A DNA stretch of 64,000 nucleotides from Pachysolen tannophilus NRRL Y-2460 (lineage: Eukaryota), in NCBI GenBank assembly GCA_001661245.1, contig KV454011.1, positions 1,328,724 through 1,392,723 on the forward strand, read 5' to 3'. The translations under genes and the position numbers were made by a program. Positions 2,441 to 63,761 of the stretch are shown one piece after another. The stretch's first letter is position 1, and every line of letters starts with the position of its first letter. The notes beneath the pieces are model-generated. The model did no database searches. It was not told the DNA's origin and worked only from the letters and a program-made list of their open reading frames with translations.

Positions 2441-3226
2441 TGATACTTTTATCATTATTTTTTTAAAAAAAAATTTTTTTATTTCTTTATTTTCTTATAT
2501 TCATTCAATAATAATATAGCAATTTATTTTTCTTTATCGCTATAACCTTTTAACATGGCTTTTTTTTATTAATTGATATAAAAAAAAAATGAATGATTTG
2601 TTGTTTATTAAATCTAATAACATTAACATTAACTTATTTAGCTTAGTTTTATGACTTAATACTATAACTTACTTTACTTTACCTTTTACCTAATAACACA
2701 CACTAAGCTAAGTTAAAAAAAAAACTAAGCTAGAAACAAAATGAGTTTTCGCAGTTGCAGTTGCAGTTGCAGCTGCAACTGCAGAAGATTAAATATAATA
2801 AGAAAAGTCGTGTGTCCAGCAACGAAAACGTATTTGAACCTGTGGTCCAATTTGTGACCCAATTTTTACCGGATGAGAACTGAATTGAACTTTTCTTTTA
2901 TTTTTTACTAATAATTCTATCATAAGTAAGTAACTAAGTAACTAAGTCACTATTTTTTTTTCTTTTTTTTAGACTTGATTGAATTCTTTAATTAGTTCAA
3001 AAGAAGAAAAAGAAGAATAAAATATATTAAAGTAGTTAGTTAATTAATTACGGAATTGCTTTTTATTTTATTTTATATTTTTCTTTTTCAATTATTATTA
3101 TTATTGTTTGGTTTTTTACTTTTTCTTTTTTTTTTTTTTTTTTTTTTTCTTTGGAGTTAAAGTTATCTTTTTATTGTTGAAAAGGCTTTTCTATTTTTAT
3201 TAATTAATTGACCATATAACCATAAG

Positions 3227-11346: not shown

Positions 11347-13062
11347 TTATGATAAATGTCTTGCAATCAATCGACCATTATCCAAAAAAGTCTTTACTAA
11401 ATCTTCAAAATAATAAGGGTCGGATTCTAAAGATTCAATGCTGTTTAAAAGTTCGTGAGTATCAACCTCTAATTCGACTTCACATTTTTTAATTGGTGGT
11501 TTATTTTTATTCCCATGTTCCTTATCGTACTCTTCCACTTTTGTTACATCAATCCGAGTGAATGTTGCATGATGGATATACGAAGTTCTATCTTTTATTC
11601 TAATCAAATTTACTTGTTTTTGGAAACTATTCAATTGTTCTTCTTTATAATCCAATGGAATTTCCAATGATATGGAAATTCTTATATCGAAAAGTGAGTT
11701 TGGCAAGTATACAAATAAATCAGATAATCTTTTCTTATCAATGGTAGCATCTATTCTATTAGTTGTTACATCTGTTGTTACTCTTGCATTTGTTGGTAAA
11801 CTATTTCTAACTGCAGATCTGAAAAATTCATCTTTTTGTTTAAATTTTTCAATGACAAATTGAGTTTTCCTACTTTTTTGAGATTTATTTAACATTTCCA
11901 AATAATCTTTTAAATCTCTTAATTGTTGATAAGGAATACCACTTTTGAAAAAACAATTTTCATTAAAATATTGTGTATTTAATATACTTTCAGATGTAAC
12001 TGGTAACATCAACCTTGCATCATTCTCCTTTGACCAAATAAATCCTAATTTTAATTCAATTTCTAAAAATTGTTTTAAAGATGGATCATGGATTCCATCC
12101 AAGACAGCATAAATCCATTGGGAAATTAATCTTGTTAAATCGTTAAAAGGTTCAACATTTGATATAGATAATGCCTCTAAACTAGTGGAAGTCTTTCTTA
12201 ATCTTTGCCTACTACTATTACTATTACTACTATTTTGTTTATTAGTTTTTAATGTTGATGAAATCCAATCGGTAGCCCATATTGGAGGTGTAGTAAGCCT
12301 TCTTGGTTTGTTATTCTTTTCAGTTTTTTTCTTTGTTATTTCGTTTAATAATTTAATATCTTCAGCTATGCTCATAGGTTTTACTTCATGGTTCTTTTGT
12401 GGGAAAGAATTTATAGTACTAGGAGTACTGGAAATTTCTTGTTCTTGTTCATTAGCATGAACATGTTCATTATCATGTTCTAATTTTGGGACTGGTGATG
12501 TATTATCAGATTCTTTTTCTCCCGAATATTGTTTATTTGAAACATTTGTATTACTTGTTGCTTTCATTATTGGTCCTGGAACAACAAAATCTTTTTTCAA
12601 AGTTGTATTAGATGGAATTGGTAATTGTCCATTAATATTAACTTTATGAACCACTGGAGAATTATTTTCACTACTTGAATATCTTCTAGCAAAACTTGGT
12701 GTAGCATTTCCCTCAATATCCACATCTTCTTCATTTGTTATATTCACTATACTATTTCGCAGTCTTATATCATCCACAGAATGAGCTAAACTACTGGTGC
12801 TACTCTTATTACTAGAACCGGAATTTGTAGGGTTGAATAAATTTGCCTGCTTCGTCAATGGTGTTGATAAAAGTCTTGGAGGTGGAGATTCTTCTTCATT
12901 AACCAAATGGTTAATCGATAATCTTGGTTTCAAATCCGGAGGATGAAGTGGCAGCTGTTGCTGTCCCTGCTGCTGCAGTTGCAGTTGCAGTTGTTGTTCC
13001 TGTTGATGCCGAGCATCAGTTTCATTCGGCCTGTCAGAAGTAATAATGTTGCTTATATCCAT
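11347..13062 (-). CDS. CET1: mRNA capping enzyme RNA 5'-triphosphatase
   Basis: PPIWATDW (Ceg1-binding WAxxW), LEIELKLG motif A, RISISLE, RIKDRTSY, EVELEV motif C. Confidence 0.92.
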   Translation of the reverse strand: MDISNIITSDRPNETDARHQQEQQLQLQLQQQGQQQLPLHPPDLKPRLSINHLVNEEESPPPRLLSTPLTKQANLFNPTNSGSSNKSSTSSLAHSVDDIRLRNSIVNITNEEDVDIEGNATPSFARRYSSSENNSPVVHKVNINGQLPIPSNTTLKKDFVVPGPIMKATSNTNVSNKQYSGEKESDNTSPVPKLEHDNEHVHANEQEQEISSTPSTINSFPQKNHEVKPMSIAEDIKLLNEITKKKTEKNNKPRRLTTPPIWATDWISSTLKTNKQNSSNSNSSRQRLRKTSTSLEALSISNVEPFNDLTRLISQWIYAVLDGIHDPSLKQFLEIELKLGFIWSKENDARLMLPVTSESILNTQYFNENCFFKSGIPYQQLRDLKDYLEMLNKSQKSRKTQFVIEKFKQKDEFFRSAVRNSLPTNARVTTDVTTNRIDATIDKKRLSDLFVYLPNSLFDIRISISLEIPLDYKEEQLNSFQKQVNLIRIKDRTSYIHHATFTRIDVTKVEEYDKEHGNKNKPPIKKCEVELEVDTHELLNSIESLESDPYYFEDLVKTFLDNGRLIARHLS

Positions 13063-16142: not shown

Positions 16143-16879
16143 TTATTCTAAAGAAACTTTAGCACCTAATCCTTCCAAGACACCTTTAATTTTTTCAGCT
16201 TCATCTTTAGCAACATTTTCTTTTAATACTTTTGGAGCAGCTTCAACGAATTTTTTGGATTCAACCAAGGATAAACCTAATAAAGATTTAATTTCTTTAA
16301 TAACTTTTGGTTTTGATTTTGGATCAAAACTTTCTAATTTAATAGAGAAAATTGTCTTTTCTTCAACTTCTTCCTTCTTTTCTTCTTCAGCTGGAGCAGC
16401 TGCTTGAGCAGCACCAGCAGCACCAGCTGCTGCTGCACCTCCAACAGGTAATGCAATATCAGCAATATTTAACTTGGATTTCAATTCGGTGATCAATGAA
16501 GAAGTTTCTAATAAAGTCAACTTGGAAATTTGATCAACAATTGTAGATATTTTTGGATCAACAGGAGCCGAAGCAGAACCAGAAGCAACAGCTTCTGTCG
16601 AGTTGAAACGAATTGATACTATCAAAGAAACAGGTGAACTCGATACTCTAAACAGAAAAAAAAAATAAAATAAAATATCAATGAAATTTTATCAAAAATT
16701 AAATAGTTAGTACCATTAAAACTCAAATCTTAATATTATTATTATTATTATCATAATTATTATCATAATTATCAAGTTGTTTTAAAATAAAACATTCTTC
16801 CCTTTATAATTTTATTCACTCACCTTTTGGTACCGACATTCAATACCGACCTTACAGACTGACGAATAATGCTAGACAT
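16143..16879 (-). CDS. MNP1: Mitochondrial ribosomal protein bL12m; exons 16879-16824 and 16647-16143
   Basis: L7/L12 motifs (IVDQISKLTLLE, KVIKEIKSLLGLSLVESKKFVE); spliced N-terminus MSSIIRQSVRSVLNVGTKRVSSSP resembles a mitochondrial presequence. Confidence 0.92.
16648..16823 (-). other. Spliceosomal intron of MNP1 (176 nt)
   Basis: GTGAGT 5'ss, TACTAAC branch point, TTTAG 3'ss; restores frame. Confidence 0.85.
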
Positions 16880-27339: not shown

Positions 27340-28665
27340 AATATAAAGATCTTTGGAAAAAATTAGATATAAAAATGTCAATTACAATGCAATGCAAAAA
27401 TGCTGGGAACAAGTACAAATAAAATAAATAAATTAATAAACAAACAAACAAACAACTAAAATAAAGAAAAGATAATTGATATTGATAAGTAGTAAATCAA
27501 CTTGGATAAAAGAGATTTTAACGTAAAAAATGACCAACAATTGGCAATAAAATTGAAATATTTGATAAACTGACCTAAGCGCTGTTGAATAAAAGTGATA
27601 GGTACAAGTGTTTACTTACTTTCTGATTTAAAATATCTTTTTAAAGAGTTCTTTCTTATGCTTTTGCAGAAACTAAAAAATCATCATTTACCGCTTTAGG
27701 AAATAGATTAGATTTTTGTTTTAATCCAGAGAAACTAGTGATACTTTTCAAAAGGGGTTTCCATACAATTATACCAATTAGAATAGCTTTATATCAAATT
27801 TAAAAATTATATTTGCAGAAATATGATTACAAGAATCTCACAATTGGATTCATAGATAATTTAATCAATTCCAAGAGATTATAAACTATCAATTGATAGG
27901 AATTTAAGGTCGAGATGAGGTCCAAAAATATTACAACAAAACACAATTATTCTTCCTCATTGGGATAAATTAAAAGTTACATACACGACCATCAGAGCAA
28001 AAAGTGTTAAAATGGCTTTTTTTTTCTTATAGAAACACCACCAACCGCTATTTGCAATACAAATGTATACGAAATGGACAATCAGTTAACGGATGTGTTG
28101 TTATTAACATCGTATGTAAAGATCATTCTTCAATTTCAAGATTTAAGTTGTTTTACTCAAAGCGCAAGGTACAATAGGTTCTTTTGAAAAGAACACAAAA
28201 GGGGAAAAAAAAAATTACTGAATTTTTTATAAATTTGATTTGATCAGAAATTTGGGTATACTGGGTCTTCAACGTGAAGAGTACAAAAATAGTTCACTCG
28301 GACTGGTGCACAGCGTTTATATCGTCACTTCAAATCAATAATATAATAAAAAAAACAATAACGAAAAAGCAAAGAAAAAAAAAGAAAAAAAAGAAACAAA
28401 TGACTTCTTTCAACTGAAAGCAAAAGCAAAAAAAGAATGAGTCTAATTTACAGCCATCTGTTTCTATATTCCAAAAGTACGGAGAAGCAAAAGATCCATA
28501 CAAGTTGTGGATTAATTAAAATTAAACAAATAAATAAATAAATAATTAAAAGAATAAAGAAATAAAACAAAAAGAAAAAACTTTTTATATTCAAATTCTT
28601 TTCGTCGTCGTCGTCCTCTCAAAAAAGACAAAAAAAAATTTTTTTTTTTTTTCATTCTGTTCGAT

Positions 28666-61574: not shown

Positions 61575-62195
61575 CTTCACTTAATACTAATTATGATTTT
61601 GCCAAACGAATAATAATAGAAAAGAAAAAAATTTTTTATCAACTAAATTCTTGAATAATTTGGGGGAAGAAAAGAGGGATGCTCTCAGTAATAATTCACA
61701 CTGTTCGCCCATACAAAATTGGTGGTTAAAAAAAAAAAAAAAAGAAAAAAACGAAAAATTTTTTCAAGCTTAAAATTCGTGCATGAAACTACAAAAGTCT
61801 CAAAACGGAAATCTCGTTTGCGTTTTTATTTTTTTTTTTTTTTTTTTTTTTTTAATTTTTTAATTTTTAAATTTTATTTTCATTTTTAGCAGTCACAAAA
61901 AATAATTTAATTTTTATATTCATTCATATACTAAAATGCTTGGTTTGAATTTAAACTCAACTAAATTTAACTAAACTTATAAATAAAAATAATGCTGAAA
62001 TTTTGATGATACTGATAAAATCCCATCACAAAATACCTCTATGCCTATGGAAATAAAAAGTTTACACCTAGGGAACCTTTTTTCCTAAAAATAAATAAAT
62101 AGATAGAAAATGAAAATAAAAAAAAAAGAATCATTTATTCCTCAAAAGAGTTTTAACAGGTCAATATTTAAAACTTTCATCAAAGTTTTTAAAAA

Positions 62196-62251
62196 GCGCA
62201 GAAACCAGTCGCAGCCATATCTTTGATCATGGCGCGCCACGATGCTTCGCG
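62196..62251 (-). promoter_or_regulatory. HAC1 3'UTR bipartite element (Ire1-foci targeting stem-loop)
   Basis: UGGCGCG (62239-62233) and GCGAC (62212-62208) juxtaposed by the stem GCCAUG...AUGGC. Confidence 0.85.
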
Positions 62252-62320
62252 TCAATTGAGTCTGCTGAACCACTTTTTTTCATATCGGAGGAAAAAAATA
62301 AACCAGTGCAGGTTTGTTTT

Positions 62321-62351
<31 letters not shown>

Positions 62352-62429
62352 CTTATCTTTTATATTTATTATTATCTTAGTTGTTAAATTGTAGTAATTT
62401 TTCCAATTTTTTCCCCTAAATTTATCAAT

Positions 62430-63761
62430 TTATTCATCGACAAGTATGAAATCATCCAATTCAAATGGGGCGGTAGAGTTAAATGGTGCTGCGGACACAT
62501 TTATATATTAGGTTTTCTTTTTGTTTTTTTTTTTAGACTTCTGGGTGATGACATGTTACAAACATGGCAAATAGAACCCATACGCCTCTTTTATATATGT
62601 TCCAACTGGAAATGCACACATACAAGAGACATATGAACCTACTGCCATGTTTCAACCTGCCATTACCTTCATCATAAAAATGTTCTTTATGAACATCATC
62701 ACTGCTGGATGATGCATCATTTTAAATCCACTACCGCTAGCCATTGAGGAATCATTCATATTTTTACCAGTACTATTATTGTTTCTGCCTTTATCAGCAT
62801 CACCAAAAAATTCATCTATTGTCTTTTCTGTAGGTTCCATTTTTAAATCCGGTTCTCCAACTTCATTATTATTTCCCAGTTGTACAAGATTTAACAATAA
62901 ATTTCCATTGTTATCCATAGGAGATAATAATGTAGTTAAATCTTCATTTGAGAATTCGTGTTTAATTTGCAAATTTGTTGAAAATAATCCATTATTATCG
63001 TTATCTTCATTTAAATTCAAATCATCTGCAAACAATGGATTAGCCAAATAATCATCAACCATTTTTGGATTCAACTCCAAGGTTAAATTTGAAGGTGAAG
63101 TAGAACCCAAGTTAGACAGAGGTGGCGATAAATAAAGATTACTTTGCCTCAGTTCAACTTTTGGCACTTGCAAAGAAACCTGCTCCTTGTTTTTCTTGTT
63201 CTTGATATTTATCTTTTCATTTTCTTCTTCTTCTTCTTCGTCTGACATCATCATCATCTGCCCATCACCATCAGCGTCAGCATCTCCATCTCCGTCAACG
63301 TCAACGTCAACGTCAACATCAACATTGTTATCTTCCAGCCCCAAATTTTTATTACGTTTGTTGGTATTTTCATTGAAACCGCTCATAGATTTCTTTTTCC
63401 CTTGCATTAATTCCAAAGTATCAAATCTTGTATCTGGAATTTTCGGAAGCAAGCTAATTTCATTTTGTAATTCCAGCTTCAAGCTAGCATCAGTAACGTA
63501 ATCAATCAATTTAGCTTCAATAGACATCAATTTCGAATCTCTTTCTTTGAAAACTTTTAAACTTTTTTGCAATTCCAAAACATGATTTTCTAAAAACTCT
63601 ACATGTCTTCTTTTCTTTTCACGAGACGCATGTGCTGCCCTTCTATTTCTTAAAATTCTTTCAATTCTCCTTTGTTCTTTTTCTTCTTGAGTCTTTGCTC
63701 TCTTACGAGGCAGCAAATTTGTGATCACCACATTCTTCTCTGTACCCTGATCCAACGACAT
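62430..63761 (-). CDS. HAC1: UPR bZIP factor Hac1; induced form joins 63761-62705 and 62491-62430 (372 aa); unspliced form ends at 62652 (369 aa)
   Basis: PRKRAKTQEEKEQRRIERILRNRRAAHASREKKR bZIP; HHPA junction; spliced tail AAPFNSTAPFELDDFILVDE*. Confidence 0.95.
62492..62704 (-). other. Ire1-cleaved unconventional intron of HAC1 (213 nt)
   Basis: 5' hairpin CATCATC-CAG/CAGT-GATGATG (62694-62714); 3' hairpin TAAATGTGT-CCG/CAGC-ACCATTTA (62480-62503); both have 7-nt CNG/CNGN loops. Confidence 0.92.
62560..62652 (-). other. Long RNA hairpin within the HAC1 intron, AGUU tetraloop
   Basis: Arms pair over about 37 bp including several G-U pairs; apical UUCC-AGUU-GGAA. Confidence 0.85.

What the first reader, a model, noticed from the sequence alone, without database searches (positions are those of the whole stretch)
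62560..62652. 93-nt G-U-rich hairpin with an AGUU (Rnt1/RNase III-type) tetraloop inside the HAC1 Ire1 intron
Seen (minus strand): AAACAUGGCAGUAGGUUCAUAUGUCUCUUGUAUGUGUG-CAU-UUCC-AGUU-GGAA-CAUAUAUAAAAGAGGCGUAUGGGUUCUAUUUGCCAUGUUU. By hand the arms pair over about 37 bp with two 1-nt bulges, one mismatch and 8 G-U wobbles. The wobbles only work on the mRNA strand, which argues for selection on RNA structure, not a DNA palindrome. The hairpin starts at the last base of the unspliced UGA stop. Known: yeast Rnt1 cleaves dsRNA stems capped by AGNN tetraloops about 14-16 nt from the loop. Inference: unspliced HAC1 mRNA or the excised intron may be an RNase III substrate, an intron-encoded kill switch that restrains UPR output until Ire1 removes it. 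I do not recall this mechanism being described for HAC1.
Basis: partly seen in the sequence, partly recalled or inferred. Interest (0 to 1): 0.78.

Follow-up and report, generated by a model that had tools for sequence, protein, structure and literature searches.

The report
Giant RNA hairpin inside HAC1 intron
A budding yeast's stress-response gene HAC1 carries, inside the intron that the ER stress sensor Ire1 cuts out, an unusually long and stable RNA hairpin that looks selected at the RNA level; it most likely keeps the intron compact, and the idea that RNase III cuts it remains untested.

Summary
The hairpin is real. On the mRNA (minus) strand 62560-62652 folds at -44.2 kcal/mol (z -8.1), against -24.0 on the plus strand. 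It extends to 62544-62667: 53 bp, 9 G-U, -58 kcal/mol, z -8.5. It is the most stable of 3650 150-nt windows scanned over both strands. It lies in a 213-nt Ire1-type intron (62492-62704) of a Hac1 orthologue, and the unspliced stop codon sits in its stem.

G-U pairs make up 9 of 12 non-Watson-Crick appositions (p about 0.004), which points to selection on RNA structure.

The RNase III (Rnt1) reading is weak:
- The AGUU loop is present, but AGNN loops have a 4.8% chance background here.
- Only 4 bp lie under the loop before a 3-nt bulge, where the literature reports a need for 5.
- Rnt1 is nuclear, whereas Ire1 removes the intron in the cytoplasm.
- No relative's DNA, RNA run or whole genome was available, so neither loop conservation nor cleavage could be tested.

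There is no S. cerevisiae-type 5'UTR-intron pairing (37 of 80 shuffles did as well).

Shuffling the hairpin in silico lowers the predicted formation of both Ire1 stem-loops; 0 of 50 shuffles matched the native on both.

Best reading (about 0.4): an architectural, insulating core of a long HAC1 intron. Two unrelated long HAC1 introns also carry a covarying central hairpin.

The parts
62652..63761 (-). Unspliced HAC1 (Hac1u) ORF, 369 aa, bZIP at residues 27-85; the last 17 residues (AVMMFIKNIFMMKVMAG) are intron-encoded
   Evidence: ORF list; Pfam bZIP_1 E 1.6e-05, 25.3 bits, below the curated cut-off of 27.6; Hac1 homologues, with HHPAVM conserved at the splice site; tail
62694..62714 (-). 5' Ire1 stem-loop: stem CAUCAUC/GAUGAUG, 7-nt loop CAGCAGU (62701-62707); predicted cut after G62705
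   Evidence: Read from the sequence; stem pair probabilities 0.92-0.96; fits C-N-G|C-N-G-N. That consensus is recalled, not taken from a call; PMC2905327 describes two seven-base loops
62492..62704 (-). Predicted Ire1-excised intron, 213 nt, 34% G+C
   Evidence: In-silico removal keeps the frame and gives a 372-aa protein ending AAPFNSTAPFELDDFILVDE*
62672..62692 (-). Small A-U hairpin between the 5' splice-site loop and the long hairpin
   Evidence: Minimum-energy fold of 62470-62730; weak and not tested further
62544..62667 (-). Extended hairpin: 124 nt, 53 bp (44 Watson-Crick, 9 G-U), -58 kcal/mol
   Evidence: z -8.51; most stable 150-nt window of the 64 kb
62560..62652 (-).
   Evidence: -44.2 kcal/mol, z -8.11
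62604..62607 (-). AGUU terminal tetraloop on a 4-bp stem (62608-62611 / 62600-62603)
62612..62614 (-). 3-nt CAU bulge on the 5' strand, four base pairs below the loop
62652..62654 (-). UGA stop codon of the unspliced ORF; all three bases are paired in the lower stem
62502..62543 (-). A-rich, predicted single-stranded linker (run of 11 A) between the hairpin and the 3' splice-site loop; the window differs from DNA contigs of two runs at 62523
62482..62501 (-). 3' Ire1 stem-loop, 7-nt loop CCGCAGC (62488-62494); predicted cut after G62492
   Evidence: Read from the sequence. Outer stem pair probabilities are 0.49-0.91; the inner pairs are predicted in another register, 0.05
62430..62491 (-). Exon 2 coding part: the tail of the spliced protein and its UAA stop

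Best explanation
The hairpin is a selected, sense-strand RNA helix that forms the core of a lineage-specific long (213-nt) Ire1-spliced intron of HAC1.

Its most likely job is architectural. It locks 124 of the 213 intron bases into a self-contained rod. The long insert then cannot mispair with the two short Ire1 stem-loops or the exon ends, and the flexible path between the two cut sites shrinks to about 89 nt. This would favour correct double cleavage by Ire1 and re-joining of the exons.

Because the rod also buries the stop codon of the unspliced reading frame, a secondary effect on ribosomes that translate unspliced mRNA is possible.

Shown: the helix, its exceptional stability, its strand-specific wobble bias, its place in the intron, and the in-silico insulating effect. 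Inferred: that insulation or compaction is the selected function.
For: - Stability: -58 kcal/mol, z -8.5 on the mRNA strand, against -35.3 on the other strand. It is the most stable of 3650 windows in the 64 kb.
- RNA-level selection: 9 of the 12 non-Watson-Crick appositions are G-U. The binomial p is 0.0036 if a third of random changes give G-U. G-U outnumber A-C 9 to 1, p 0.011.
- Persistence: pair probabilities of 0.90-1.00 in a 700-nt context.
- Insulation test: with the native hairpin the predicted stem probabilities are 0.96 (5' site) and 0.77 (3' site). Over 50 dinucleotide shuffles of the 124 nt the means are 0.69 and 0.45. 8 of 50 shuffles reach the native value at the 5' site, 5 of 50 at the 3' site, and 0 of 50 at both.
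- Analogy: two other yeast HAC1 loci with long introns (L003, 297 nt; L004, 626 nt) fold far better than shuffles (z -10.0 and -4.6). They share a central hairpin with 30 predicted pairs, 4 of them compensatory. In L003 the whole intron is one rod that brings its two ends together.
- The S. cerevisiae alternative, intron-5'UTR pairing, is absent here. The review PMC6627864 (passages) says that pairing is not conserved beyond close relatives of S. cerevisiae.
Against: - No close relative's DNA could be fetched, so there is no covariation evidence for this hairpin itself.
- The rod does not reach the splice sites. 37 nt on the 5' side and 52 nt on the 3' side remain, much of it a predicted unpaired A-rich tract. 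Juxtaposition is therefore only partial, unlike in L003.
- The insulation test is purely thermodynamic. Any stable hairpin would pass it, so it does not explain the 53-bp length or the AGUU loop.
- Relatives with HHPA(A)VM-type splice sites manage with introns of 26-33 nt (L005, L006). The long insert is therefore not needed for splicing as such.
- No RNA data exist to show that the intron is spliced at the predicted sites.
Confidence: 0.4

Rival explanations
1. Ribosome roadblock (fail-safe). The helix starts 13 nt before the stop codon of the unspliced frame and continues for 40 bp beyond it. A ribosome translating unspliced mRNA would have to melt roughly half of a -58 kcal/mol helix to terminate. 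It would stall, and translation would be attenuated or no-go decay and nascent-chain degradation triggered. Ire1 splicing removes the block together with the intron.
For: - The stop codon 62652-62654 is paired inside the stem.
- No 5'UTR-intron pairing beyond chance is available to block initiation as in S. cerevisiae.
- The intron-encoded tail is short and hydrophobic.
- The effector is cytoplasmic and depends on translation, so the compartment fits, unlike for Rnt1.
- That stable stem-loops stall ribosomes and trigger no-go decay is recalled knowledge (Doma and Parker 2006), not taken from a call.
Against: - No ribosome or RNA-end data exist.
- The position of the stop relative to intron structure cannot be compared in relatives. 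Their intron-encoded tails vary from about 5 to 45 residues.
- Destroying the mRNA reserve at every leaky translation event would be costly.
- Ribosomes can unwind stable helices.
Confidence: 0.15
2. RNase III substrate. Rnt1, or a Dcr1-type enzyme, binds the AGUU-capped stem in the nuclear precursor or the excised intron and cuts about 14-16 nt from the loop. This lowers the pool of unspliced HAC1 mRNA or clears the intron.
For: - There is an AGUU tetraloop on a long dsRNA stem.
- The 3' strand below the loop is continuous for 12 nt, so the CAU bulge could be extruded.
- Bulged AGNN stems are cut in vivo in S. cerevisiae: YDR514C and CAF4 in PMC13183374 (passages).
- In this same window a snR40 orthologue has an AGUU-capped stem about 80 nt upstream. 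S. cerevisiae snR40 is a listed Rnt1 substrate with a G2 loop (S1 Table of PMC4334505). AGNN-type signals are therefore probably used in this yeast.
- Intronic Rnt1 decay hairpins exist in RPS22B and RPL18A (cited in PMC4937481).
- Nuclear decay of pre-HAC1 is listed as a regulatory layer in S. cerevisiae (PMC5814838, search listing only).
- The central hairpins of L003 and L004 end in UGGG and AGGU, both NGNN.
Against: - AGNN caps 4.8%, and NGNN 15%, of all 4-bp-closed tetraloops in the window.
- Only 4 bp precede a 3-nt bulge, where the first 5 bp are reported as required and 7 as preferred. Rnt1 is also said to prefer short stem-loops to long duplexes (PMC4334505).
- Rnt1 is nuclear, and Ire1 removes the intron in the cytoplasm, so the 'switch' logic fails.
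- S. cerevisiae HAC1 is not named in the main text of two transcriptome-wide Rnt1 studies. In the supplements that could be searched it appears only with antisense predicted loops and no cleavage (8 of 20 and 6 of 17 files were not searched).
- No paper in the library links the HAC1 intron to RNase III.
Confidence: 0.12
3. Binding or localisation element. The rod is a docking site for a dsRNA-binding or other protein, for example to target unspliced mRNA to Ire1 clusters as the 3'UTR bipartite element does in S. cerevisiae and K. phaffii.
For: - The length and conservation-like wobble bias exceed what simple compaction needs.
- The known targeting element is itself an extended stem-loop (PMC2905327, passages).
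- The G+C-rich island in the 3' region, 62200-62275, shows no significant fold: z -0.2.
Against: No motif or partner is known. The conserved motifs of the 3' bipartite element could not be compared, because no source was read for them. This is pure inference.
Confidence: 0.1
4. Neutral relic. An inverted duplication or foldback insertion lengthened a short ancestral intron and is simply tolerated.
For: - Relatives with the same splice-site peptide have 26-33-nt introns (L005, L006), so the extra 190 nt were gained.
- A 13-nt internal direct repeat (62549-62561 and 62643-62655) suggests that the stem grew by local duplication.
Against: - The non-Watson-Crick positions are strongly biased to G-U on the mRNA strand: 9 of 12, and 9 G-U against 1 A-C.
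- The stability is 23 kcal/mol higher on the sense strand.
- No other copy of the arm occurs in the 64 kb, and no flanking target-site duplication was found.
Confidence: 0.08

Closest known systems
S. cerevisiae HAC1 252-nt intron (Ire1-spliced; translation blocked by intron-5'UTR pairing)
   Same: - A bZIP gene.
- Two 7-nt-loop stem-loops at the intron borders.
- The intron supplies a short alternative C-terminus and a UGA stop.
- Splicing swaps in an acidic and hydrophobic tail (PMC6627864, passages).
   Different: No 5'UTR-intron complementarity beyond chance here (37 of 80 shuffles as good). Instead, a 53-bp intramolecular hairpin occupies 58% of the intron and encloses the stop codon.
Komagataella phaffii (Pichia pastoris) HAC1, 322-nt intron (PMC2905327)
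   Same: - One of the closest named relatives by bZIP similarity, behind Kuraishia and Ogataea.
- The same HHPAVM splice-site peptide.
- A long intron.
- The spliced tail there ends DFVFFQE by the paper's reverse primer; here it ends DDFILVDE.
   Different: No central intron hairpin is described in the passages read.
Long HAC1 introns of other yeasts (C. parapsilosis 626 nt, PMC6222058; metagenome loci L003, 297 nt, and L004, 626 nt)
   Same: These long introns are highly structured and have a central extended hairpin. The L003 and L004 hairpins align, with 4 compensatory pairs among 30, and end in NGNN tetraloops.
   Different: - They have no evident sequence similarity to the window's hairpin (by eye only; not aligned).
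- The splice-site peptide is different (QNSA type).
- In L003 the rod reaches the intron ends; here it does not.
- In the passages returned by a term search of PMC6222058, only the splice-site hairpins are described.
Rnt1 (yeast RNase III) intronic decay signals in RPS22B and RPL18A, and mRNA targets such as BDF2 and CAF4
   Same: An intron-located stem capped by an AGNN tetraloop.
   Different: - Those are short stems with at least 5 bp under the loop, in spliceosomal (nuclear) introns.
- Here the stem is 53 bp, with a 3-nt bulge after 4 bp, in an intron that is removed in the cytoplasm.
- Cleavage is untested.
Conserved HAC1/XBP1 intron structures (Hooks and Griffiths-Jones 2011, RNA Biol 8:552)
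   Same: The general idea that the unconventional intron carries conserved RNA structure.
   Different: That paper is not held in the library. I saw it only as cited in PMC4937481, PMC6222058 and PMC6627864, which mention the splice-site hairpins. It may describe internal stems of long introns, and I could not check this.

Membership tests
Ire1-spliced HAC1/XBP1-type unconventional intron | The host gene is the UPR bZIP factor (Hac1 orthologue) | tested here: met
   - bZIP_1 E 1.6e-05, though below Pfam's gathering score (25.3 against 27.6 bits).
- 286 homologues, many of them named HAC1.
- The basic region is invariant, and HHPAVM lies at the splice site.
Ire1-spliced HAC1/XBP1-type unconventional intron | Two stem-loops with 7-nt loops of the form C-N-G|C-N-G-N at the intron borders | tested here: met
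   The loops are CAGCAGU (62701-62707) and CCGCAGC (62488-62494), read from the sequence. Stem probabilities are 0.92-0.96 at the 5' site and 0.49-0.91 for the outer 3' stem. The consensus itself is recalled.
Ire1-spliced HAC1/XBP1-type unconventional intron | Excision keeps a reading frame and replaces the C-terminus with an activation tail | tested here: met
   In-silico splicing gives a 372-aa protein ending AAPFNSTAPFELDDFILVDE*.
Ire1-spliced HAC1/XBP1-type unconventional intron | The spliced junction is observed in RNA | not testable with these tools
   No RNA run was listed. The four runs laid were DNA contigs.
Rnt1 (yeast RNase III) G2-loop substrate | Terminal AGNN (NGNN) tetraloop | tested here: met
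   AGUU at 62604-62607 in both the minimum-energy and the centroid fold. The chance background is 4.8%.
Rnt1 (yeast RNase III) G2-loop substrate | The first 5 bp under the loop are paired, with a preference for 7 (PMC4334505) | tested here: not met
   4 bp (UUCC/GGAA), then a 3-nt CAU bulge on the 5' strand. The criterion is quoted from passages read.
Rnt1 (yeast RNase III) G2-loop substrate | Double-stranded RNA at the cut sites, 14 nt (5' side) and 16 nt (3' side) from the loop | tested here: inconclusive
   Both positions (about 62621 and 62588) are base-paired. The bulge shifts the two strands by 3 nt, so the usual 2-nt stagger would not result.
Rnt1 (yeast RNase III) G2-loop substrate | Loop and stem kept in sister species; enzyme present in the genome; cleavage observed | not testable with these tools
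   - No whole genome is held.
- No relative's DNA was found.
- No RNA-end data exist.
S. cerevisiae-type translational block by 5'UTR-intron pairing | Complementarity between the leader and the intron beyond chance | tested here: not met
   The best duplex is -16.0 kcal/mol. The shuffled leader gives a mean of -16.2, sd 3.0, and 37 of 80 shuffles are as good. Only the 139 nt upstream of the ATG were tested, and the transcription start is unknown.
Any curated RNA family (Rfam 15) | Match at or near the gathering score | tested here: not met
   Only sub-threshold chance hits, for example mir-466 at 20.4 bits against a gathering score of 85.
Dispersed foldback or inverted-repeat element | Further copies; flanking target-site duplication | tested here: not met
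   One match, itself, in the 64 kb at up to 3 mismatches. No flanking direct repeat was found. The rest of the genome could not be searched.

The most novel reading that the evidence does not exclude
Long HAC1 introns carry an RNase III-family entry site. The NGNN-capped central hairpin (AGUU here; AGGU and UGGG in two unrelated long HAC1 introns) would be cut by Rnt1 or a Dcr1-type enzyme in the nucleus. The intron would then set the size of the unspliced HAC1 reserve, or yield small RNAs that target only unspliced HAC1. This would be a decay layer of the UPR that Ire1 splicing erases.
Probability: 0.1. Interest if true: 0.75.

Novelty: new variant of a known kind. Interest (0 to 1): 0.42.

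Why it matters
HAC1 and XBP1 splicing is the textbook case of cytoplasmic mRNA splicing. Why some yeasts keep introns of 200-850 nt when 20-30 nt suffice is not explained outside S. cerevisiae, where the extra RNA blocks translation by pairing with the leader.

Here the extra RNA does something else: most of it is one selected 53-bp helix that encloses the unspliced stop codon. If the helix insulates the Ire1 sites, stalls ribosomes or recruits a nuclease, it would be a second, independent solution to keeping unspliced HAC1 silent yet ready.

The question is directly testable with arm-swap mutants in a culturable yeast. The parallel covarying hairpin in two other long HAC1 introns suggests a general, undescribed feature.

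Tried and rejected
- Whole genome: not held. RNT1, DCR1, AGO1 and other copies of the hairpin could not be sought.
- Sequencing runs: no RNA holder listed. The four runs laid were DNA contigs of the same or a near-identical organism, with no difference inside the hairpin. X6 gave one identical 311-nt contig, and X7 gave only low-complexity matches. There are therefore no expression, splice-junction, RNA-end or sister-species data.
- Earlier scan notes: nothing for this place, its relatives or its genome. The word searches gave only unrelated HAC1 and RNase III notes.
- Metagenome scan for Hac1 relatives: 15 loci, none a close relative. L001 and L002 showed no recognisable Ire1 loops with my pattern.
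- Rfam: nothing near threshold.
- 5'UTR-intron pairing: a 16-bp candidate (leader -89 to -72 against the 3' arm) is not better than shuffles. Rejected.
- 3' G+C-rich island 62200-62275 as a folded bipartite element: z -0.2. Left open.
- Retroposon or foldback origin: no target-site duplication and no other copies.
- In-frame read-through of the UGA stays open for 31 codons across the hairpin. By my rough estimate this would happen by chance about one time in ten, so it was not pursued.
- The DNA-level inverted-repeat scan of the window lists only A/T runs among its 25 longest. The hairpin is not prominent as DNA.
- Hooks and Griffiths-Jones 2011 could not be read.
- One window scan timed out and was repeated with a coarser step.
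- I did not fold the published Rnt1 substrates from the S1 Table, because that would have meant typing sequences that come from neither the window nor a locus.
Full report
**Observation.**
- It folds into a single hairpin of -44.2 kcal/mol, z -8.11, with 0 of 200 shuffles as good.
- The plus strand reaches only -24.0.
- The loop is AGUU (62604-62607) on a 4-bp stem, followed by a 3-nt CAU bulge.
- The helix is longer than reported. In a 261-nt context it runs from 62667 to 62544. That is 124 nt with 53 bp, of which 44 are Watson-Crick and 9 are G-U. The non-paired appositions are one A-C and two G-A.
- The extended helix folds at -58 kcal/mol, z -8.51, on the sense strand and at -35.3 on the antisense strand.
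- Its pairs keep probabilities of 0.90-1.00 in a 700-nt context.
- Among 3650 windows of 150 nt over both strands of the 64 kb it is the most stable: -59 against a mean of -20.6, sd 6.8, at only 37% G+C.

**Context.** The hairpin lies at the end of a 369-aa ORF (62652-63761, minus strand).
- The ORF has a bZIP domain (just under Pfam's cut-off) and 286 homologues, many of them named HAC1. The nearest named ones are from Kuraishia, Ogataea and Komagataella.
- The basic region is invariant, and the peptide HHPAVM marks the conserved 5' splice site.
- Reading the RNA, CAUCAUC-CAGCAGU-GAUGAUG (62694-62714) and a second stem-loop with loop CCGCAGC (62488-62494) fit the two seven-base Ire1 loops (PMC2905327, passages). 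The C-N-G|C-N-G-N consensus is recalled.
- Cutting after G62705 and G62492 removes 213 nt. This replaces the tail AVMMFIKNIFMMKVMAG* with AAPFNSTAPFELDDFILVDE*. The new tail resembles the end of the K. phaffii spliced protein, which the reverse primer in PMC2905327 implies.
- The intron therefore consists of the 3' half of the 5' splice-site stem-loop, a weak A-U hairpin, the 124-nt rod, an A-rich unpaired linker of about 40 nt, and the 5' half of the 3' splice-site stem-loop.
- The UGA of the unspliced frame (62652-62654) is paired inside the rod.

**Is it selected as RNA?**
- Of the 12 apposed positions that are not Watson-Crick, 9 are G-U. If a quarter to a third of random changes to a pair give G-U, p is 0.0004-0.0036.
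- G-U against A-C, which would be G-U on the other strand, is 9 to 1, p 0.011.
- As DNA the repeat is unremarkable. It is not among the 25 longest inverted repeats of the window.
- The arm has no other copy in the 64 kb, and there is no flanking duplication.
- A decaying DNA palindrome is therefore unlikely, although an internal 13-nt direct repeat hints that the stem grew by duplication.

**What it is not.**
- Rfam gives only chance hits.
- The S. cerevisiae mechanism, intron-leader pairing, has no counterpart. The best leader-intron duplex (-16.0 kcal/mol) is matched by 37 of 80 shuffled leaders.
- This agrees with the review PMC6627864 (passages), which says that the pairing is not conserved beyond close relatives of S. 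cerevisiae.

**The RNase III reading.**
- For it:
  - The AGUU loop is present.
  - The 3' strand below the loop is continuous.
  - Bulged AGNN stems are cut in S. cerevisiae (PMC13183374, passages).
  - This window holds a snR40 orthologue with an AGUU-capped stem about 80 nt upstream. S. cerevisiae snR40 is a listed Rnt1 substrate with a G2 loop (S1 Table of PMC4334505).
- Against it:
  - AGNN caps 177 of 3716 (4.8%) of 4-bp-closed tetraloops in the window.
  - Only 4 bp precede the bulge, where the first 5 are reported as required and 7 as preferred. Rnt1 is also said to prefer short stem-loops to long duplexes (PMC4334505, passages).
  - Rnt1 is nuclear, while the intron is removed in the cytoplasm. 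Every precursor would be exposed before Ire1 acts, which makes a dimmer and not a switch.
  - HAC1 is absent from the main text of two transcriptome-wide Rnt1 studies. In the supplements searched it shows only antisense predicted loops. Part of the files was not searched.
  - Two searches (HAC1 + intron + Rnt1; 'HAC1 intron' + 'RNase III') found no paper proposing the link.
- Conservation, the enzyme's presence and cleavage could not be tested.

**Comparative evidence.**
- No close relative's DNA could be reached. The runs hold the same sequence, the scan has no look-alike window, and the 15 metagenome loci are distant.
- They are still informative:
  - Two loci with HHPAAVM-type sites have introns of 33 and 26 nt (L005, L006). 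The long insert here is therefore a gain.
  - Two other loci have long introns: L003 with 297 nt and L004 with 626 nt, the length published for C. parapsilosis in PMC6222058.
  - These two introns fold far better than shuffles (z -10.0 and -4.6). They have a shared central hairpin with 4 compensatory pairs among 30, capped by UGGG and AGGU.
- Structured central hairpins thus recur in long HAC1 introns. In the passages returned by a term search of PMC6222058, only the splice-site hairpins are described. Hooks and Griffiths-Jones 2011 could not be read.

**Mechanism.**
- In a 321-nt context the native RNA forms the 5' and 3' Ire1 stems with probabilities 0.96 and 0.77.
- After dinucleotide shuffling of the 124 nt, the means over 50 shuffles are 0.69 and 0.45. 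No shuffle equals the native value at both sites.
- I therefore commit, at about 0.4, to an architectural and insulating role. The rod sequesters most of a long insert, protects the two Ire1 stem-loops and shortens the flexible path between them.
- The caveats are that the rod does not reach the splice sites and that any stable hairpin would pass this test.
- Rival readings:
  - ribosome roadblock at the buried stop codon, 0.15;
  - RNase III site, 0.12;
  - protein-docking or localisation element, 0.10;
  - neutral relic, 0.08.

**Verdict.** The Rnt1 interpretation is unproven and has counter-indications. The element is a new, lineage-specific variant of the structured long HAC1 intron and is of moderate interest. 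The decisive data are sister-species introns, RNA ends and arm-swap mutants.

Noticed in passing
window 28242-28332 (-) and 28407-28420 (-): A snR40 box C/D snoRNA orthologue (78.7 bits). About 80 nt upstream lies a 5-bp stem capped by AGUU (loop 28412-28415) on an interrupted 14-bp lower stem (z -3.2). It is a likely Rnt1 5'-processing signal; S. cerevisiae snR40 is a listed Rnt1 substrate.
   Followed up: partly
L003:3162-3458 and L004:3450-4075: Two metagenome HAC1 loci have long Ire1 introns (297 and 626 nt). Their central hairpins align and keep pairing through 4 compensatory changes among 30 pairs. The loops are UGGG and AGGU. In L003 the whole intron folds as one rod (z -10).
   Followed up: partly
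window 62502-62543 (-), variant at 62523: The A-rich tract of the intron has a run of 11 A. DNA contigs of two runs (X1, X5) read a different base plus a 2-base insertion at 62523. This is a strain difference or a homopolymer assembly error.
   Followed up: no
window 62200-62275 (-): A G+C-rich island (GGCGCGCC, GGCUGCGAC) lies in the otherwise A/T-rich region about 160-230 nt after the HAC1 stop. It could be the 3' targeting element or belong to the neighbour. Its fold is not better than shuffles (z -0.2).
   Followed up: partly
window 62549-62561 and 62643-62655: A 13-nt direct repeat (85% identity) lies inside the hairpin. AUGGCA occurs twice in the 5' arm, and UGCCAU and UGUCAU in the 3' arm. 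The lower stem may have grown by duplication of the stem base.
   Followed up: no
window 12846-12995 (+), 2696-2845 (+), 16381-16530 (+): These are the next most stable 150-nt folds of the window (-52.8, -46.3 and -46.4 kcal/mol). The one at 2696-2845 contains a hairpin of about 21 bp with a single bulge. They were not identified.
   Followed up: no
L005:3201-3240 and L006:3105-3137: These Hac1 loci have an HHPAAVM splice-site peptide like the window's, but introns of only 33 and 26 nt. Intron length is very labile among these yeasts.
   Followed up: no
window 61726-61880 and 62320-62370: Very long A and T homopolymer runs (about 30 nt) flank the HAC1 3' region. They dominate the DNA-level inverted-repeat list.
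   Followed up: no
window 62559-62651 (-): Reading through the unspliced UGA, the frame stays open for 31 codons, exactly across the 93-nt hairpin, and ends at UAA 62556-62558. By my rough estimate this would happen by chance about one time in ten.
   Followed up: no
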